17,283 nucleotides of DNA from a virus (lineage: Duplodnaviria; Heunggongvirae; Uroviricota; Caudoviricetes): the IMG/VR virus record IMGVR_UViG_2548877009_000010, positions 1-17,283 of that record, one strand, 5' to 3'. Shown piece by piece: positions 9,001 through 15,000 of the stretch. Position 1 is the stretch's first letter; every line of letters starts with the position of its first letter. The position numbers are program-made.

Positions 9001-12000
9001 AGGGCGTCTGATTCGCGTGAATCAGGGCGGTAAATTTCGTTACTGCATACCGGGCGCTGATTTACCGGCAGAGCCGGAAGCTGCATCCGTAGCGGAAACC
9101 GATGGTAAAGCCTTTCCTCAGCCAGCAGGTGTTGCGTTACCAGTCCAGGAAACGACGACACAGGAAGAAATGAAAACAGAAATCGTGGAAGACATTGTGA
9201 AGTTACAGCCATCGGTCACCGAAACGAAAGCAGATGACCTGATTCTACCATCGCTGCATGTGGCTAACCGCGAGCTGCGCCGGGCAAAAGGTCAGGTTCA
9301 GAAGTGGGAGCGAGTCTGCGCCGCGCTGCGGGAGCTGAATAAGTGCCGGGATATTCTCCGGGATATTACCGCCACCAGAGAACAGCAGCGGTGAGTGGGT
9401 GGAAGACGTGGTGCCGGGCTGAAATTCTGATACTCCGGCAGTGCGCGGGAACAATGAAGGTAAAAAGCATTGGCGCGCTTATCGGACGAACTGAAGCGGC
9501 AGTGAGAACGAAGGCACGGGAGCTGGGCATCAGCATGATGTTACGTGGTGATTTTCACCCGTCGGCAAAATATTCACAGCGTGATATTGAGCTGGCGCGG
9601 CAACTGCATCAGCGCGGTGTACCCCGACGGGAAATTGCCGAAAAGTTCGGAATGAAGTTGCGTGCAGTGAATAACTACGTTTATTTCGACAGGAGGGTTC
9701 AGGCGTGAGGGTGAGAATTTATATCGCCGGTCCAATGACGGGATATGAAAATTTCAACCGCGAGGCATTTCACAGGGCGGAAGAAGCACTGAAACGGGAA
9801 GGGCATACCGTCTTAAACCCGGCAGTACTTCCGGACGGGCTGACACAGCCGCACTACATGGATATTTGCATGGCAATGATTCGTTGTGTGGATGCGGTTT
9901 ATATGCTGAATGGCTGGCAGCGGTCAGCGGGCGCTAAGGCAGAGCTGGCACTGGCGGAGAAACTGGGGCATGCGGTGATTTATCAGGAGGTGGCTCAATG
10001 AGAGAGGTTAACTATGAGGCGCTTCGTGAGGCAGCACAAAACTATCAGTCGACGCTGGCGTGGTATCAGGCTATCCCGGACAGCCCAAATGCTGAACGGG
10101 ATTGTGATGCGGCTCTTGCTGCGTTTAAGCGTCACATCCGTCATCGGGAAGCGGATATTATCGCTGATTTGCTGGATGGACTGGAAGAAGCAAAATCACA
10201 ACTCAACGAGCAACGTGAGTATTACGAAGGTGTTATCTCGGATGGGAGTAAGCGCATTGCTGAACTGGAAGCGCGGGAAGTTCAATTACCGACTCGCTAC
10301 GACCTTCGATATGGACACCCGATAAATGCAGATGAGCGACAAGTCATGATACCTAAAGAAAATGGCAGTTGGCTTTACCTGATTGACCTAGAACACGCAT
10401 TACGCGTCGCTGGCATTCGCATCAAAGGAGAGGAGCATGGAAATAAAACCAGAAGATGAGTTAAGTAATATTGTTTTATTTCCGGTAAAAGAGGATGACC
10501 CACGTAATCAGGTTAATTTTCTTTATGAGCCATCGGAAAGACCATACTGCCATCACGCCTCTGTCCGGGTTGACGAAAAAGAGCGTCAGGTCCGCTGTAA
10601 AATCTGCGGTTCAGTTGTGGAGCCGTTTGACTGGATGCTCTCTGTGGCGAAAAGAGAAACCAGACTGGCAGATGATGTAAAGCTATTGCGCCAGGAGGAA
10701 CAGGAAAGGCGAAAAAATATAGAAAAGTTAATTCAGATTGAGCGTAACGCGAAAGCGCGGATACGCAGGGCGTCAAAATCCAGAACTGAATAATTAAATT
10801 CAGCACTGTTAAAAATTTAATCCTTAACCGGAGGGATTCCTGCACCCTCAGAACATAAGGAGACCGCCTGAAAGGGTGGTAATGAAAAATGACTGAATTA
10901 ACCAAAGAGCAATTAATCAAGGAAGCCAAATTAAAAATAGCGGTTGCGAACTGTTACCCTAATTCAGAGATGGCCAGGGTAGAGGGTGAGCTATTCAAAA
11001 TTGCACTGGCATCGCTGGAAGCAGAACCGATAGCGTGGGAATGCGGTGAAAACATAATCCTGTTTAACCCTGACACAGTTGAAGCATACGCAAAACGTGC
11101 GGAAATATCACCTAAACCACTATTCTCCGCGCCGCCAGCGCTGGTAGTGCCTGATAAGTTGCCGCGTGAATACAGAAACGGTTGGCCTCTTGCGTATAGT
11201 GATTATGCTGAAGGCTGGAACGACTGCCGCGAAGCCATGCTTCAGGGAGATAAATCATGATTAATCGTATCAAGCTGGAGCACATCCTCGAATATACCAG
11301 GCAGCAGAGGCATATTGGTCAGCATTGTAAAATTCCACCAGGAGATATGGTTGAAATCATGGAGATTGCCATGCGCAAGGCTGGCAATTCTCCGGTAACT
11401 CCGGATGGTTGGATAAGCTGTAGTGAGCGAATGCCGCCAGTTGGTGTTGATGTACAACTGTTTGTGTCCAGCACGGGTGAACAGTTTACAGGTTTTAACC
11501 TGGATAATACGGGTGACTTCCAGTATGCGCAGTGTTTCGGTGCGCCCATCGTGTGTGAAGCCACACACTGGATGCCGCTACCAGAACTGCCGAAGGAGGT
11601 GCGCCAATGAGCTGGCCTGAAGCCTTCTCAAATGTTGGTATTGCAATGGCGGTGGCGCTGGTTGTGTATTCGATTTGCCGCTGGGGATAAATTGCTGAAA
11701 AAAGATCCCGACACACACATGAGTCGGGATCTTTGATTTATATAGCCTACGAATCCGCCAGTAAGAGAGGGGGCGGACGGTTTATTCTAATACTGGAATT
11801 ATGTGGGGAAAAGTTTATAAGAAATCGGTTTCATAACTTTGTCCGCCATGATAAATACCTGCGATAAAGACTTTATTGCCATCAACGGCAAAAGCAATAA
11901 TCGTTCTGTGGCGGAAGTGAGTTACCCGCATTCCCTGTCGAATATCATCGCGTTTATTGCCCCGATGCGGGAATGTGGAAAACCCATCAAGATAATCAAG

Positions 12001-15000
12001 AAGTGCATTGGCATAATTGTCAGCAATGACGCTCCCTGCTTTCTCCGTTATATATCTGTGCAGGTTGATTATCTGCTGTTCGGCCTCAGGAGTAATGATG
12101 ACTTCATATGTCATGCAGATTACTTCCCGGCTCGAATCGCGGCGCGAACCTGTGAAATGGAGCGTCCGTTGTTTGGGTTTTCGCGGATAGAATCGAGAGA
12201 TGGGGCGGCTGAATGCGTTAACCACGCTTCGATTGCTTTATCGCGCTCATTCAGTGCGCGAAGCCCTTCACGAATGACCTCACTTTCTGAAGCATAGGCA
12301 CCGGAAGCCACACGGGCGCGCACCATGTCAGCCATCTCGTTAGTTAATGTAATGCTGAATTGTTGGGTTGTACGCATGGTAAACCTCACGGAGTAGGATA
12401 GAACACTATTCGATGATAGCACACTGCCTGTTGACGACAACAGAAATCAGATACAATATTGCCGCACGCCAGCCTGAACAACTGGCACCTGCTGCGCCAG
12501 CAGAGACAACCGATGGCGCACGATACCAGATTTTACAATTCGGATAACTCCGCCGCCCCTGCCAGCAGGCATGGGCGGCGTTCTCATGCATTCAAATCTG
12601 ACTGGTTCCAGCATGACCCATGCACTGAAGAACAGGCCGAATGGCTGATCCAGTGCTACCGCAGACGTGGTTACGAGTTTCAGAAAGATCTCAGTTTCGA
12701 TCGTCGTCACTGGATAATCTCTGTCAGGCTCCCTTATTCCGAATGCCCACCGCGTCCGTCCCGCACATTCCAGCAGCGCATCTGGAGGTAACGTGCGGGT
12801 ATTACTTCGACCTGTTCTGGTGCCGGAACTCGGGATGGTGGTCCTTAAGCCGGGCCGTGAATCAATGTCAGCATTCCATAACGGCAGAATATTGGTGGAG
12901 CCGGAACCGAAAAACATGCGCGGTCTGCCGTCCGGAGTCGTTCCCGCCGTTCGCCAGCCGCTGGCAGAGGATAAAACATTACTGCCATTTTTCAGCGATG
13001 AGCGGGTTATTCGTGCTGCTGGTGGTGCTGGTGCACTGTCTGACTGGTTATTACGTCACGTGAAATCCTGCCAGTGGCCACACGGCGATTATCATCACAG
13101 CGAAACGGTCATTCACCGTTACGGTACCGGCGCGATGGTGTTGTGCTGGCACTGCGACAACCAGCTGCGCGACCAGACATCAGAATCACTCGATCAACTT
13201 GCTCAGCAGAATCTGGTTGCCTGGATGATTGATGTCATCCGTCACGCAATAAGCGGTACGCAGGAGAGGGAGTTATCGCTGGCCGAATTATCCTGGTGGG
13301 CGGCCTGCAATCAGGTGGTGGATGCACTACCTGAGGCAGTAGCGCGTCGTTCGCTGGGATTACCGGCGGAAAAAATCCGCTCCGTATACCGTGAGAGTGA
13401 CATCGTACCGGGAGAACAGACAGCCATCAGCATACTGAAGCAGCGCACAAAAAATATTGCGCTGCCACTTCACGTCCACCAGCAACAAAATCCACCACAG
13501 AAAAAAACGGTTGTCAGTATCGCCGTTGATCCGGAGTCTCCTGAATCGTTCATGAGGCGGCCTAAACGTCGCCGTTGGGTTAATGAGAAATACACGCGCT
13601 GGGTAAAGACACAGCCGTGTGCGTGTTGTGGTAAGCCAGCTGACGATCCGCATCACCTGATTGGTCATGGTCAGGGGGGAGTGGGAACAAAGGCCCACGA
13701 TATTTTCACGCTACCGTTGTGCCGGGAGCACCACAACGAACTTCATGCAGACCCGCTGAAGTTTGAGAAAAAGTACGGCTCTCAGATTGAGTTAATTTTT
13801 CGTTTTCTTGATCACGCCTTTGCGACTGGCGTGCTCGGGTAAAAGAGGTGACTGATGCTCATAGATTTGGTTTTACCTTACCCGCCGACGGTGAACACTT
13901 ACTGGCGACGCCGTGGCAGCACATATTTTGTATCAAAAGCCGGGGAGCGTTATCGCCGGGCAGTGGCGCTTATTGTTCGCCAGCAGCGGCTGAAATTAAG
14001 CCTGTCCGGACGGCTGGCAATAAAAATTATTGCAGAACCACCGGATAAGCGCCGCCGTGACCTAGACAATATTCTGAAAGCGCCGCTGGATGCGCTGATG
14101 CATGCGGGGTTGCTAATGGACGATGAGCAGTTTGATGAAATCAATATTGTACGTGGCAAGCCAGTATCTGGTGGACGGCTGGAGATAAAAATTACAGAGG
14201 TGGGGTGTGCATGAATAACCAGTATTTACAGTTTGTTCGTGAGCAACTCATGATTGCCACTGCGGATCTCAGTGGGGCGACAAAAGGTCAACTGGAAGCC
14301 TGGCAGGAAAATGCCCTGTTCGATACAGGGCGTTACAGACGCAAAAAAATTCGTTACCGCGATGAGGTAACCGGAAAAATGATCACGCGGGATAATCCAC
14401 CAATCCCGGGTAAACAATCACTGGCGAAAGGCTCATCAATTGCCCTGGTCAGTCCTGTTGAGTTTGCAACATCATCGTGGCGGCGTGCCCTTCTGGAACT
14501 GGAAGAACATCAGAAGGCGTGGTTGTTGTGGTGTTATGGCGGAAACATTTGCTGGGAGCATCAGATCGCGATAACGCAGTGGGTGTGGAATGAATTTAAA
14601 ACTCAGTCTGGTACCAGAAAAATTGCAGTGAAAACGCTGGAGCGTGTGAAGAAGTTGATCTGGCTGGCGGCACAGGATGTCAGAGGATGGGTTACCGGGT
14701 GTGAGGTCTACCAGAGACAGGAGCTTGCCAGACTGTGTGGAGTTAAGCCTGATAACTGGAGCCATAATTATGCGAACTACTGGCGTGAGATGTGCGATAT
14801 TTTTAAGCGCCTCGATAGAGAATCCTTGATTTGCTCCGTGAAAATAAGAGCGCAACAAAAAGCGACCTTTTCACGACGAGATATTGCAAAAGTCAATTAA
14901 ATCGCGTATGTTTCGTATAAATCTGATATTTTGCCTATTTTGTACGCGATGGCAAAGTAAGAAAAAAACTGCCGCCAGGCGGTTTTTTTATGTCCGAAAA

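What the first reader, a model, noticed from the sequence alone, without database searches (positions are those of the whole stretch)
11696..12450. ParD/ParE toxin-antitoxin pair in reverse orientation with its own terminator inside the phage accessory region
A canonical antitoxin-toxin pair (RHH ParD, ParE/RelE-fold toxin) is transcribed against the surrounding rightward genes and ends at a strong hairpin-U6 terminator. A sigma70-like promoter (TTGTCG, 16 nt, TATCAT) is visible upstream of parD. In a prophage such a module can stabilise the element or act in abortive infection against competing phage.
Basis: partly seen in the sequence, partly recalled or inferred. Interest (0 to 1): 0.5.

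Follow-up and report, generated by a model that had tools for sequence, protein, structure and literature searches.

The report
ParD/ParE toxin-antitoxin in Stx2 prophage
This is an intact but ordinary ParD/ParE toxin-antitoxin gene pair, with its own promoter and terminator, carried backwards in the early region of a Shiga-toxin-2 prophage; identical copies are already annotated in hundreds of E. coli genomes, so it is a correct but unsurprising find.

Summary
On the minus strand lie parD (12120-12377, 85 aa) and parE (11815-12114, 99 aa), 5 nt apart. Upstream is an extended -10 promoter (TTGTCG-16-TGC-TATCAT, 12440-12413). About 75 nt downstream is a 12-bp hairpin followed by U6 (11698-11739, dG -20 kcal/mol). 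The neighbouring phage genes all run rightward.

The interpretation also holds. ParD passes the curated ParD models. ParE passes PF05016, and its AlphaFold model (pLDDT 88.7) matches only ParE-type toxins in its top 22 PDB hits, ahead of RelE. Both genes are under purifying selection (dN/dS about 0.1), and the pair is kept together across Proteobacteria.

It is not new. The exact proteins occur on at least 1000 public contigs each and are named ParE/ParD by RefSeq. The module is present in 328 of 5426 complete E. coli genomes and in phage ArgO145.

Additional points:
- The window is an Stx2-converting prophage; stx2A starts at 16903.
- Distant relatives carry a conserved operator palindrome (GTAGGATTAAATCCTAC), which is degenerate in this clade.
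- O157 Stx2a phages keep only an orphan parD allele.

Toxicity, the gyrase target and the biological role remain untested. Interest is low.

The parts
12120..12377 (-). parD: 85-aa antitoxin with an N-terminal ribbon-helix-helix domain (residues ~6-51) and a C-terminal tail presumed to bind the toxin
   Evidence: PF03693 E 1.5e-7. TIGR02606 54.1 bits against cut-off 46.2. PHROG 6494 'antitoxin' E 1.3e-56, full length. Sequence hits to solved ParD antitoxins 3KXE, 7YCV, 7B22, 6X0A, 8C24, 5CEG. RefSeq WP_001260976.1 is 100% identical. dN/dS 0.06-0.14.
11815..12114 (-). parE: 99-aa ParE-type toxin of the ParE/RelE superfamily
   Evidence: PF05016 E 5.8e-10. PHROG 5232 'toxin' E 1e-42. AlphaFold model pLDDT 88.7 with topology beta-alpha-alpha-beta-beta-beta. 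The top 22 Foldseek PDB hits are all ParE-type toxins (TMq 0.74-0.83), with RelE ranked lower at 0.63-0.66. RefSeq WP_000220602.1 is 100% identical. dN/dS about 0.1.
12413..12440 (-). parDE promoter: -35 TTGTCG (12440-12435), 16-nt spacer, TG (12421-12420), -10 TATCAT (12418-12413)
   Evidence: Promoter scan. The GTGC-TAT.. extended -10 is conserved in ArgO145, an O157 Stx2a phage, Salmonella, Yersinia and Izhakiella copies. The same site is found in Salmonella locus L004.
12428..12443 (.). Palindrome CTGTTGACGACAACAG holding two back-to-back -35 hexamers: TTGTCG for parD, and TTGACG for the divergent isrK promoter in relatives
   Evidence: Read from the sequence. Both promoter-like sites are found here and in L004. 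isrK lies directly downstream of the divergent site in relatives.
12393..12409 (-). Operator-like 17-mer ATAGTGTTCTATCCTAC between the -10 and the Shine-Dalgarno. It is a degenerate version of the family palindrome GTAGGATTAAATCCTAC. It overlaps the downstream copy (12397-12407) of a direct repeat AGTGT[G/T]CTATC whose other copy lies at 12415-12425.
   Evidence: Unique in the window at up to 3 mismatches (0.01 expected). It sits at the same position as the palindrome found in 13 of 14 distant loci. It is the best-conserved stretch of the upstream region within the clade.
11698..11739 (-). Intrinsic terminator: stem 11701-11712 / 11723-11734, with a U6 tail on the minus strand. It also folds on the + strand (tail UUUGAUUU), so it is bidirectional.
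   Evidence: dG -20.2, z -4.8. + strand dG -20.4, z -5.3. It lies inside the 94%-identical block shared with phage ArgO145 (window 11607-12448).

Best explanation
This is a self-contained, lysogen-expressed type II toxin-antitoxin module of the ParDE family. It is carried as a 'moron' (its own promoter, two genes, its own terminator) in the region between the replication genes and Q of an Stx2-converting lambdoid prophage.

Inferred mechanism, from what is known of the family:
- An extended -10 sigma-70 promoter drives a bicistronic parD-parE transcript that stops at the hairpin-U6 terminator.
- ParD dimerises through its ribbon-helix-helix domain and, alone or with ParE, represses this promoter at the conserved operator-like sequence just downstream of the -10.
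- The ParD C-terminal tail wraps and neutralises ParE.
- If ParD is not replenished (loss of the prophage, a transcription shut-off, or protease activation), free ParE most likely poisons DNA gyrase. That would cause double-strand breaks, SOS induction and growth arrest or death.

The net effect would be retention of the prophage segment and/or interference with competing phages.

Shown here: gene integrity, family and fold membership, operon anatomy, conservation, purifying selection.
Inferred: autoregulation, toxicity, gyrase as the target, the biological role.
For: - Family assignment: ParE PF05016 at 40 bits against cut-off 23; ParD PF03693 and TIGR02606 above their curated cut-offs; full-length PHROG toxin and antitoxin families.
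- Fold: the ParE model has pLDDT 88.7, and its 22 best PDB matches are ParE-type toxins from ParDE, PaaA2-ParE2, PrpAT and PfiAT complexes, ahead of RelE, YoeB, HigB and YafQ.
- Antitoxin: ParD matches solved ParD antitoxins by sequence.
- Co-conservation: a ParD homologue lies immediately upstream of the ParE homologue in 20 of 21 related loci; the exception (L020) is a parE fragment. These loci come from Enterobacterales, Burkholderiales, Desulfovibrio, Dyella and Beijerinckiaceae.
- Selection: dN/dS 0.06-0.14 for both genes.
- Regulation: a 17-bp palindrome sits 18-29 nt before the parD ATG in 13 of 14 distant loci and is unique in each ~12-kb locus. A conserved derivative sits at the same place here.
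- Transcription signals: terminator dG -20, z -4.8; promoter found by scan and conserved.
- Moron behaviour: the same block sits in different neighbourhoods. It is in the nin-like region here, in O111 and in a non-Stx prophage, and next to isrK-C4-ant near int in ArgO145 and in Salmonella. Homology breaks exactly at 12448 in four contexts.
- Public annotation: RefSeq names the identical proteins ParE and ParD.
- Literature: ParE toxins poison gyrase, trigger SOS and can activate prophages (PMC11925232).
Against: - No experiment on this pair was found.
- Some ParE proteins are non-toxic, for example PaParE1 (PMC11925232), and toxicity cannot be read from sequence.
- The C-terminal tail (93-99) is predicted with pLDDT below 50.
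- Sequence similarity of the toxin to any solved ParE is weak (best E 0.021). NCBIfam has no model hit for it.
- ParE-fold toxins such as PfiT and PrpT are among the top structural hits, and I did not establish what they target, so a non-gyrase target is possible.
- No PADLOC defence model matches.
- The operator in this clade is only a half-palindrome (4 of 7 symmetric pairs).
- The promoter consensus match alone is at chance level.
Confidence: 0.85

Rival explanations
1. The toxin is a RelE-like ribosome-dependent mRNA endonuclease, or acts on some other non-gyrase target, rather than being a gyrase poison. The module would still be a type II toxin-antitoxin pair but would arrest translation instead of damaging DNA.
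For: From my knowledge of Pfam (not tested here), PF05016 covers both ParE and RelE toxins. RefSeq names the protein only 'RelE/ParE family'. The family has many invariant or nearly invariant basic and histidine residues (R51, R55, R59, R63, H66, R68, H69, R70, H89) that could form a nuclease-like site. RelBE structures do appear in the fold search (9G12, 3G5O). The ParE-fold toxins PfiT and PrpT, whose targets I did not establish, are among the top hits.
Against: The 22 best structural matches are all ParE-type (TMq 0.74-0.83), while RelE, YoeB, HigB and YafQ score 0.42-0.66. The partner is a CC2985-type RHH ParD (TIGR02606 above cut-off), not a RelB/YefM/HigA-type antitoxin. The long alpha1-alpha2 hairpin (residues 9-46) and the FPxRGxxRxDI motif align with ParE of 6X0A.
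Confidence: 0.1
2. The module is an evolutionary leftover that is no longer toxic: a non-toxic ParE with ParD retained mainly as a small transcription factor. It would have no addiction or defence function in this prophage.
For: Non-toxic ParE proteins exist (PaParE1; PMC11925232). Sporadic frameshifted parE variants occur. Toxin genes are frameshifted or truncated in Yersinia similis, Dyella, Buttiauxella and Caballeronia loci. O157 Stx2a phages keep parD alone, still under purifying selection (dN/dS 0.14).
Against: parE here is full length and identical to the allele in 53 complete genomes. All 328 genomes with parE carry it at 80% or more coverage. dN/dS is about 0.1 for parE against ArgO145 and Salmonella. 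The exact protein occurs on at least 1000 contigs, whereas the broken variants are clusters of 1-3 members.
Confidence: 0.1
3. The ORFs, promoter and hairpin are chance features with no gene function.
For: The promoter consensus match alone is not above the shuffle expectation.
Against: Curated family thresholds are passed for both proteins. The structure is confidently predicted. The pair is conserved across phyla. Purifying selection is evident. The hairpin has z = -4.8.
Confidence: 0.01

Closest known systems
Chromosomal ParDE systems with CC2985-type RHH ParD: Caulobacter ParD1-ParE1 (3KXE), Mesorhizobium ParDE (5CEG, 6X0A), M. tuberculosis ParDE1 (8C24), Vibrio cholerae ParD2-ParE2 (7R5A), P. 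aeruginosa ParDE (6XRW)
   Same: The gene order is the same (antitoxin first). The antitoxin has an N-terminal RHH domain, and TIGR02606 is passed. The toxin fold matches (TMq 0.74-0.83). Sizes are similar (85 and 99 aa). An upstream palindromic operator occurs in the wider family.
   Different: Sequence identity to any solved toxin is only 13-24%. This copy is carried by a lambdoid Stx2 prophage rather than a chromosome or superintegron. The operator is degenerate in this clade.
PaaR2-PaaA2-ParE2 of E. coli O157:H7 (5CW7, 5CZF)
   Same: It has a ParE-fold toxin in E. coli O157:H7, and the structural match is good (TMq about 0.8).
   Different: Per PDB entries 5CW7/5CZF, that antitoxin is PaaA2; from my knowledge (not tested here) it lacks an RHH domain and the system has a third regulator gene, PaaR2. 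Here the antitoxin is an RHH ParD and nothing follows parE except the terminator. Toxin identity is only about 17%.
PfiT/PfiA of the Pf4 filamentous prophage (9W3A; PMC13048266)
   Same: It is a prophage-borne toxin-antitoxin pair with a ParE/RelE-superfamily toxin, and it is among the top structural hits (TMq about 0.8). It is known to modulate production of its own phage.
   Different: [quoted passage not shown] It belongs to an unrelated phage type. Identity is only 16%.
Plasmid RK2 ParDE, the founding member of the family
   Same: It is an autoregulated RHH antitoxin plus gyrase-poisoning ParE that stabilises a mobile element. This rests on established knowledge (Jiang et al. 2002, as cited in PMC11869752).
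   Different: It is plasmid-borne. No direct sequence comparison was run here.
Orphan ParD of O157 Stx2a phages (phi346/phi349, PMC12502783; LC7278xx, PA2)
   Same: It is 87% identical to this ParD at protein level, with residues 1-48 identical. It has the same promoter region and the same upstream boundary.
   Different: parE is replaced from its 14th nucleotide onward by a lipoprotein-like ORF followed by a HigA-like ORF. It lies next to isrK-C4-ant.

Membership tests
ParE toxin (ParE/RelE superfamily, PF05016) | Profile match above the curated threshold | tested here: met
   PF05016 at 40 bits against gathering cut-off 23, E 5.8e-10, covering profile positions 1-89 of 89. PHROG 5232 'toxin' E 1e-42. 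No NCBIfam model hit.
ParE toxin (ParE/RelE superfamily, PF05016) | Beta-alpha-alpha-beta-beta-beta fold that is closer to ParE than to RelE-type mRNases | tested here: met
   Model pLDDT 88.7, elements E4-7, H9-26, H28-46, E62-67, E71-78, E81-90. PDB ranks 1-22 are all ParE-type (TMq 0.74-0.83); RelE scores 0.63-0.66.
ParE toxin (ParE/RelE superfamily, PF05016) | Encoded directly downstream of, and co-oriented with, a ParD-type antitoxin | tested here: met
   5-nt gap between the genes on the same strand. The pairing is kept in 20 of 21 related loci.
ParE toxin (ParE/RelE superfamily, PF05016) | Toxic when unopposed; inhibits DNA gyrase | not testable with these tools
   This needs expression and gyrase cleavage assays. 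Some ParE proteins are non-toxic (PMC11925232).
ParD antitoxin (RHH, PF03693 / TIGR02606) | Profile match above the curated threshold, with an N-terminal ribbon-helix-helix domain | tested here: met
   TIGR02606 at 54.1 bits against 46.2. PF03693 at 32.1 bits against 21, covering residues 6-51. Sequence matches to solved ParD antitoxins 3KXE, 7YCV, 7B22, 8C24, 5CEG. No structure was predicted for ParD.
ParD antitoxin (RHH, PF03693 / TIGR02606) | Autoregulation through an operator at its own promoter | tested here: inconclusive
   The palindrome GTAGGATTAAATCCTAC occurs in 13 of 14 distant loci 18-29 nt before the ATG. Here there is only a conserved degenerate version plus direct repeats. Binding was not tested.
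ParD antitoxin (RHH, PF03693 / TIGR02606) | C-terminal region binds and neutralises the cognate ParE | not tested
   Pfam aligns only residues 6-51. The C-terminal 34 residues are the most variable part among relatives. No complex was modelled.
Phage 'moron' (autonomous promoter-gene-terminator insert in a prophage) | Own promoter and terminator, orientation independent of the flanking operon, and presence/absence or position polymorphism among related phages | tested here: met
   Promoter and terminator. Opposite orientation. Present in 328 of 5426 E. coli genomes. The same block sits in different neighbourhoods with sharp boundaries at 11607 and 12448. Expression in lysogens was not tested.
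Three-component PaaR-PaaA-ParE systems of E. coli O157:H7 | PaaA-type antitoxin without an RHH domain, plus a third regulator gene | tested here: not met
   The antitoxin is an RHH ParD. There is no third co-oriented gene, because the terminator follows parE.
Catalogued anti-phage defence systems (PADLOC-DB 2.0) | Match to a defence-system protein model | tested here: not met
   No PADLOC hit at E <= 0.01 for ParE, ParD or three of the neighbouring proteins.

The most novel reading that the evidence does not exclude
Two linked readings are not excluded.

(a) The Stx2 prophage carries its own 'quinolone-like' trigger. Stress that depletes ParD would free ParE, poison gyrase, induce SOS, cleave the S24-type cI repressor and so induce the phage and Stx2 release. 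In addition, rightward early transcription running antisense through parDE would shut off antitoxin supply once induction starts.

(b) The orphan ParD kept under purifying selection in O157 Stx2a phages is a counter-defence. It would neutralise this ParE when such a phage infects a lysogen carrying the full module. That would be the first example of a classic antitoxin used as a phage anti-TA factor, a gap pointed out in PMC12502783.
Probability: 0.1. Interest if true: 0.6.

Novelty: already known. Interest (0 to 1): 0.2.

Why it matters
As it stands, this is a correctly recognised member of one of the best-known toxin-antitoxin families, and databases already annotate it. Its main value is contextual. 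It sits in an Stx2-converting prophage, and ParE-type toxins damage DNA through gyrase and switch on SOS, the same pathway by which quinolones induce Stx phages. If this ParE is active, it could influence prophage stability, Shiga-toxin release or competition among Stx phages. It also supplies the missing cognate toxin for the orphan ParD reported in O157 Stx2a phages. None of this has been tested.

Tried and rejected
- The simple terminator scan did not list the hairpin. Folding showed the hairpin is real.
- The promoter scan alone was not above chance, so I relied on cross-species conservation instead.
- NCBIfam gave no hit for the toxin.
- phmmer against the PDB gave only one weak toxin hit (E 0.021). 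I therefore built a 24-sequence alignment, predicted the structure and ran a fold search.
- PADLOC gave no defence-system match.
- A tRNA T-arm-like sequence upstream of parD in relatives looked like an att or tRNA remnant. ARAGORN found no tRNA, and Rfam showed it is part of the isrK / C4 antisense RNA module. The tRNA idea was dropped.
- I looked for further copies of the operator-like 17-mer elsewhere in the window, as possible extra ParD targets. There are none.
- Literature searches for an experimental study of this prophage ParDE, or of the ArgO145 module, found none. They turned up only the 2025 note on orphan ParD/HigA antitoxins.
- I ran no further search on ParD, because its family membership was already above curated thresholds.
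- No natural full-length ParD-ParE fusion was available for modelling the complex. P0029 is a frameshifted fusion.

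
Full report
**1. What is in the sequence**

The minus strand of 11696-12450 carries two tightly spaced ORFs.

- parD runs from ATG 12377 to TAA 12120 (85 aa). A GAGG Shine-Dalgarno lies at 12387-12384.
- parE runs from ATG 12114 to TAA 11815 (99 aa), starting 5 nt after the parD stop.
- The mechanical ORF list extends both genes to upstream TTG/GTG codons. The shorter ATG starts agree with full-length PHROG profiles and with RefSeq annotation of identical genes.

The terminator has a stem at 11701-11712 / 11723-11734. The minus-strand RNA continues into six U (11698-11703). 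It folds at -20.2 kcal/mol, z = -4.8, with none of 200 shuffles folding as well. The simple terminator scan did not list it. It folds equally well on the + strand, so it is a bidirectional terminator. It also faces the rightward DUF551 gene and a small ORF.

All neighbouring genes run rightward.

**2. What the window is**

Family scans give the following gene order:

| Coordinates | Strand | Assignment |
|---|---|---|
| 1-1131 | - | lambda-type integrase |
| 1422-3893 | - | large exonuclease |
| 5699-6337 | - | S24-type cI repressor |
| from 6429 | + | Cro, CII-like protein, O-like (DUF1376+DnaT) and P replication proteins |
| following | + | DUF1627, an HTH protein, DUF4406, Ea22-like and two unknown proteins |
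| 11257-11610 | + | DUF551 |
| 11815-12377 | - | the toxin-antitoxin pair |
| 12513-12791 | + | hypothetical protein |
| 12793-13842 | + | DUF968 / HNH-like |
| following | + | RusA, Q antiterminator, a DNA methyltransferase |
| 16561-16812 | + | three tRNAs |
| 16903 to window end | + | N-terminus of Stx2 subunit A |

The module therefore sits in the nin-like region of an Stx2-converting lambdoid prophage. Rightward early transcription must cross it antisense to reach Q.

**3. Family and fold**

- ParD passes PF03693 (32.1 bits against 21) and the curated NCBIfam ParD model TIGR02606 (54.1 bits against 46.2) over its N-terminal ribbon-helix-helix region. It also matches solved ParD antitoxins by sequence (3KXE, 7YCV, 7B22, 6X0A, 8C24, 5CEG).
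- ParE passes PF05016 (40 bits against 23). From my knowledge of Pfam, not tested here, that family also holds RelE-type mRNases. I therefore built an alignment of 24 homologues and predicted the structure.
- The model has pLDDT 88.7 and pTM 0.79, with topology beta-alpha-alpha-beta-beta-beta and a disordered tail at 93-99.
- In a Foldseek search of the PDB, ranks 1-22 are all ParE-type toxins: Mesorhizobium ParE, M. tuberculosis ParE1, PfiT, PrpT, Caulobacter ParE1, Vibrio ParE2, P. aeruginosa ParE and O157 ParE2. Their TMq values are 0.74-0.83. RelE, YoeB, HigB and YafQ follow at 0.42-0.66.
- No PADLOC defence model matches.

**4. Conservation and selection**

- A scan of one genome per species found 18 loci encoding a relative of ParE. 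In every related locus except one toxin fragment, a ParD homologue lies immediately upstream. These loci span Salmonella, Yersinia, Izhakiella, Pantoea, Paraburkholderia, Polynucleobacter, Desulfovibrio, Dyella and others.
- dN/dS against ArgO145 and Salmonella is about 0.1 for parE and 0.06-0.08 for parD.
- Several distant toxin copies are frameshifted or truncated. A few singleton frameshift variants exist in E. coli. The main 90%-identity cluster has 508 members, and the exact proteins of this window are on at least 1000 public contigs each.
- Among 5426 complete E. coli genomes, parE is present in 328 and parD in 365. The 37 extra genomes carry an 86%-identical parD allele.

**5. Regulatory DNA**

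I aligned the 130 nt upstream of parD in 19 loci.

- Distant relatives share a 17-bp palindrome, GTAGGATTAAATCCTAC. It has at most 3 mismatches in 13 of 14 loci, lies 18-29 nt before the ATG, and is unique within each ~12-kb locus. This is the expected kind of operator for an RHH antitoxin.
- In the clade of this window (E. coli phages, Salmonella, Yersinia, Izhakiella), the same position holds ATAGTGTTCTATCCTAC (12393-12409). Only the right half-site is kept. It overlaps one copy of a direct repeat, AGTGT[G/T]CTATC (12397-12407 and 12415-12425).
- This 17-mer is the best-conserved upstream stretch within the clade and is unique in the window.
- The GTGC-TAT.. extended -10 is conserved in all six clade members. 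The -35 spacing is not conserved in Yersinia and Izhakiella.
- The -35 lies in a palindrome (12428-12443). In relatives this palindrome also provides the -35 of the divergent isrK promoter.

**6. Mobility of the module**

- Homology to ArgO145 covers 11607-12448. Homology to Salmonella covers 11817-12448, to Izhakiella 11843-12448, and to O157 Stx2a phages only 12101-12448. The upstream boundary at 12448, just beyond the -35, is thus shared by four different contexts.
- In ArgO145, Salmonella, Izhakiella and the O157 Stx2a phages, the module lies back-to-back with the isrK / C4 antisense RNA region, followed by an anti-repressor gene in ArgO145 and a 225-aa ORF at the same position in the O157 Stx2a phage.
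- In this window, in O111:H- 11128 (99.8% identical over 2.6 kb) and in a non-Stx prophage carrying the common 94% allele, it lies between DUF551-type genes and DUF968-RusA-Q.
- This is the behaviour of a moron: an autonomous promoter-gene-terminator cassette.

**7. Mechanism**

The best-supported reading is a canonical autoregulated ParDE module that is expressed in the lysogen independently of the cI-repressed phage operons.

Gyrase poisoning by free ParE, with double-strand breaks and SOS induction, is inferred from the family (PMC11925232; Jiang et al. 2002, as cited in PMC11869752). It is not shown for this protein. Some ParE proteins are non-toxic.

Prophage retention, exclusion of other phages and modulation of induction are all plausible roles. 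There is a precedent for a prophage ParE-superfamily pair controlling its own phage's production (PfiAT; PMC13048266).

**8. Comparison and novelty**

The module is a member of the CC2985-type ParD / ParE family. It is not the three-component PaaR-PaaA-ParE type of O157: there is no third gene, and the antitoxin is an RHH protein.

RefSeq already names identical proteins (WP_000220602.1 and WP_001260976.1). The ArgO145 record annotates them as toxin and antitoxin. PHROGs has dedicated families for them.

I found no experimental paper on this pair. A 2025 paper notes the orphan ParD and HigA antitoxins in EHEC phages phi346 and phi349 and speculates on an anti-defence role (PMC12502783). The window's module appears to be the intact counterpart of that orphan.

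**Verdict:** The module is already known at the annotation level, and interest is low.

Noticed in passing
window 16903-17283 (+), with tRNAs at 16561-16812: The window ends with the first ~127 residues of Shiga toxin 2 subunit A (MKCILFKWVLCLLLGFSSVSYSREFTIDF...), downstream of tRNA-Met, tRNA-Arg and tRNA-Arg. The element is therefore an Stx2-converting prophage.
   Followed up: partly
L003 (Stx2a phage LC727840) 1799-2777; also E. coli PA2 and 36 other complete genomes: O157 Stx2a phages keep an orphan parD: 87% aa identity overall, residues 1-48 identical, dN/dS 0.14. parE is replaced from its 14th nucleotide onward by a 93-aa lipoprotein-like ORF and then a HigA-like ORF. PMC12502783 reported the orphan ParD and HigA antitoxins without a cognate toxin.
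   Followed up: partly
L005-L010, L012-L017, L019, about 18-29 nt upstream of parD: The 17-bp palindrome GTAGGATTAAATCCTAC is conserved upstream of parD in 13 of 14 distant loci, from Paraburkholderia to Desulfovibrio, and is unique in each locus. It is probably the family's ParD operator. It is degenerate in the E. coli phage clade.
   Followed up: partly
L002 4861-5043, L003 2867-3049, L004 5462-5648, L018 2127-2312: In ArgO145, O157 Stx2a phages, Salmonella and Izhakiella, parDE lies back-to-back with the isrK sRNA / C4 antisense RNA module (followed by an anti-repressor gene in ArgO145), sharing a palindrome that holds both -35 boxes. The window has lost that neighbour: homology ends at 12448, yet the TTGACG -35 remains at 12431-12436.
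   Followed up: partly
window 11607-11690 (+): A 27-codon ORF (MSWPEAFSNVGIAMAVALVVYSICRWG) overlaps the DUF551 stop codon (ATGA) and encodes a hydrophobic peptide. The ~85-nt stretch containing it matches many other E. coli genomes at 85-90% identity (rows H53-H63 of the spread listing), and those matches stop just before the terminator. It is not annotated in RefSeq.
   Followed up: no
window 11815-12377: parE and parD differ in base composition (42.7% against 53.1% GC). Synonymous divergence is about threefold higher in parE than in parD against both ArgO145 (dS 0.23 against 0.085) and Salmonella (0.97 against 0.32). This hints at recombination inside the module or different histories for the two genes.
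   Followed up: no
window 4330-4537 (-): Sub-threshold Rfam match to the sRNA STnc100 (32.6 bits against gathering 47, E 0.002) in the region between the exonuclease gene and the cI side of the prophage.
   Followed up: no
L004 4589-4739 and 11808-11859: The Salmonella prophage region carrying the parDE homologue also holds a hok/sok-type sok RNA and a DicF RNA, so several toxin-antitoxin or sRNA morons cluster there.
   Followed up: no
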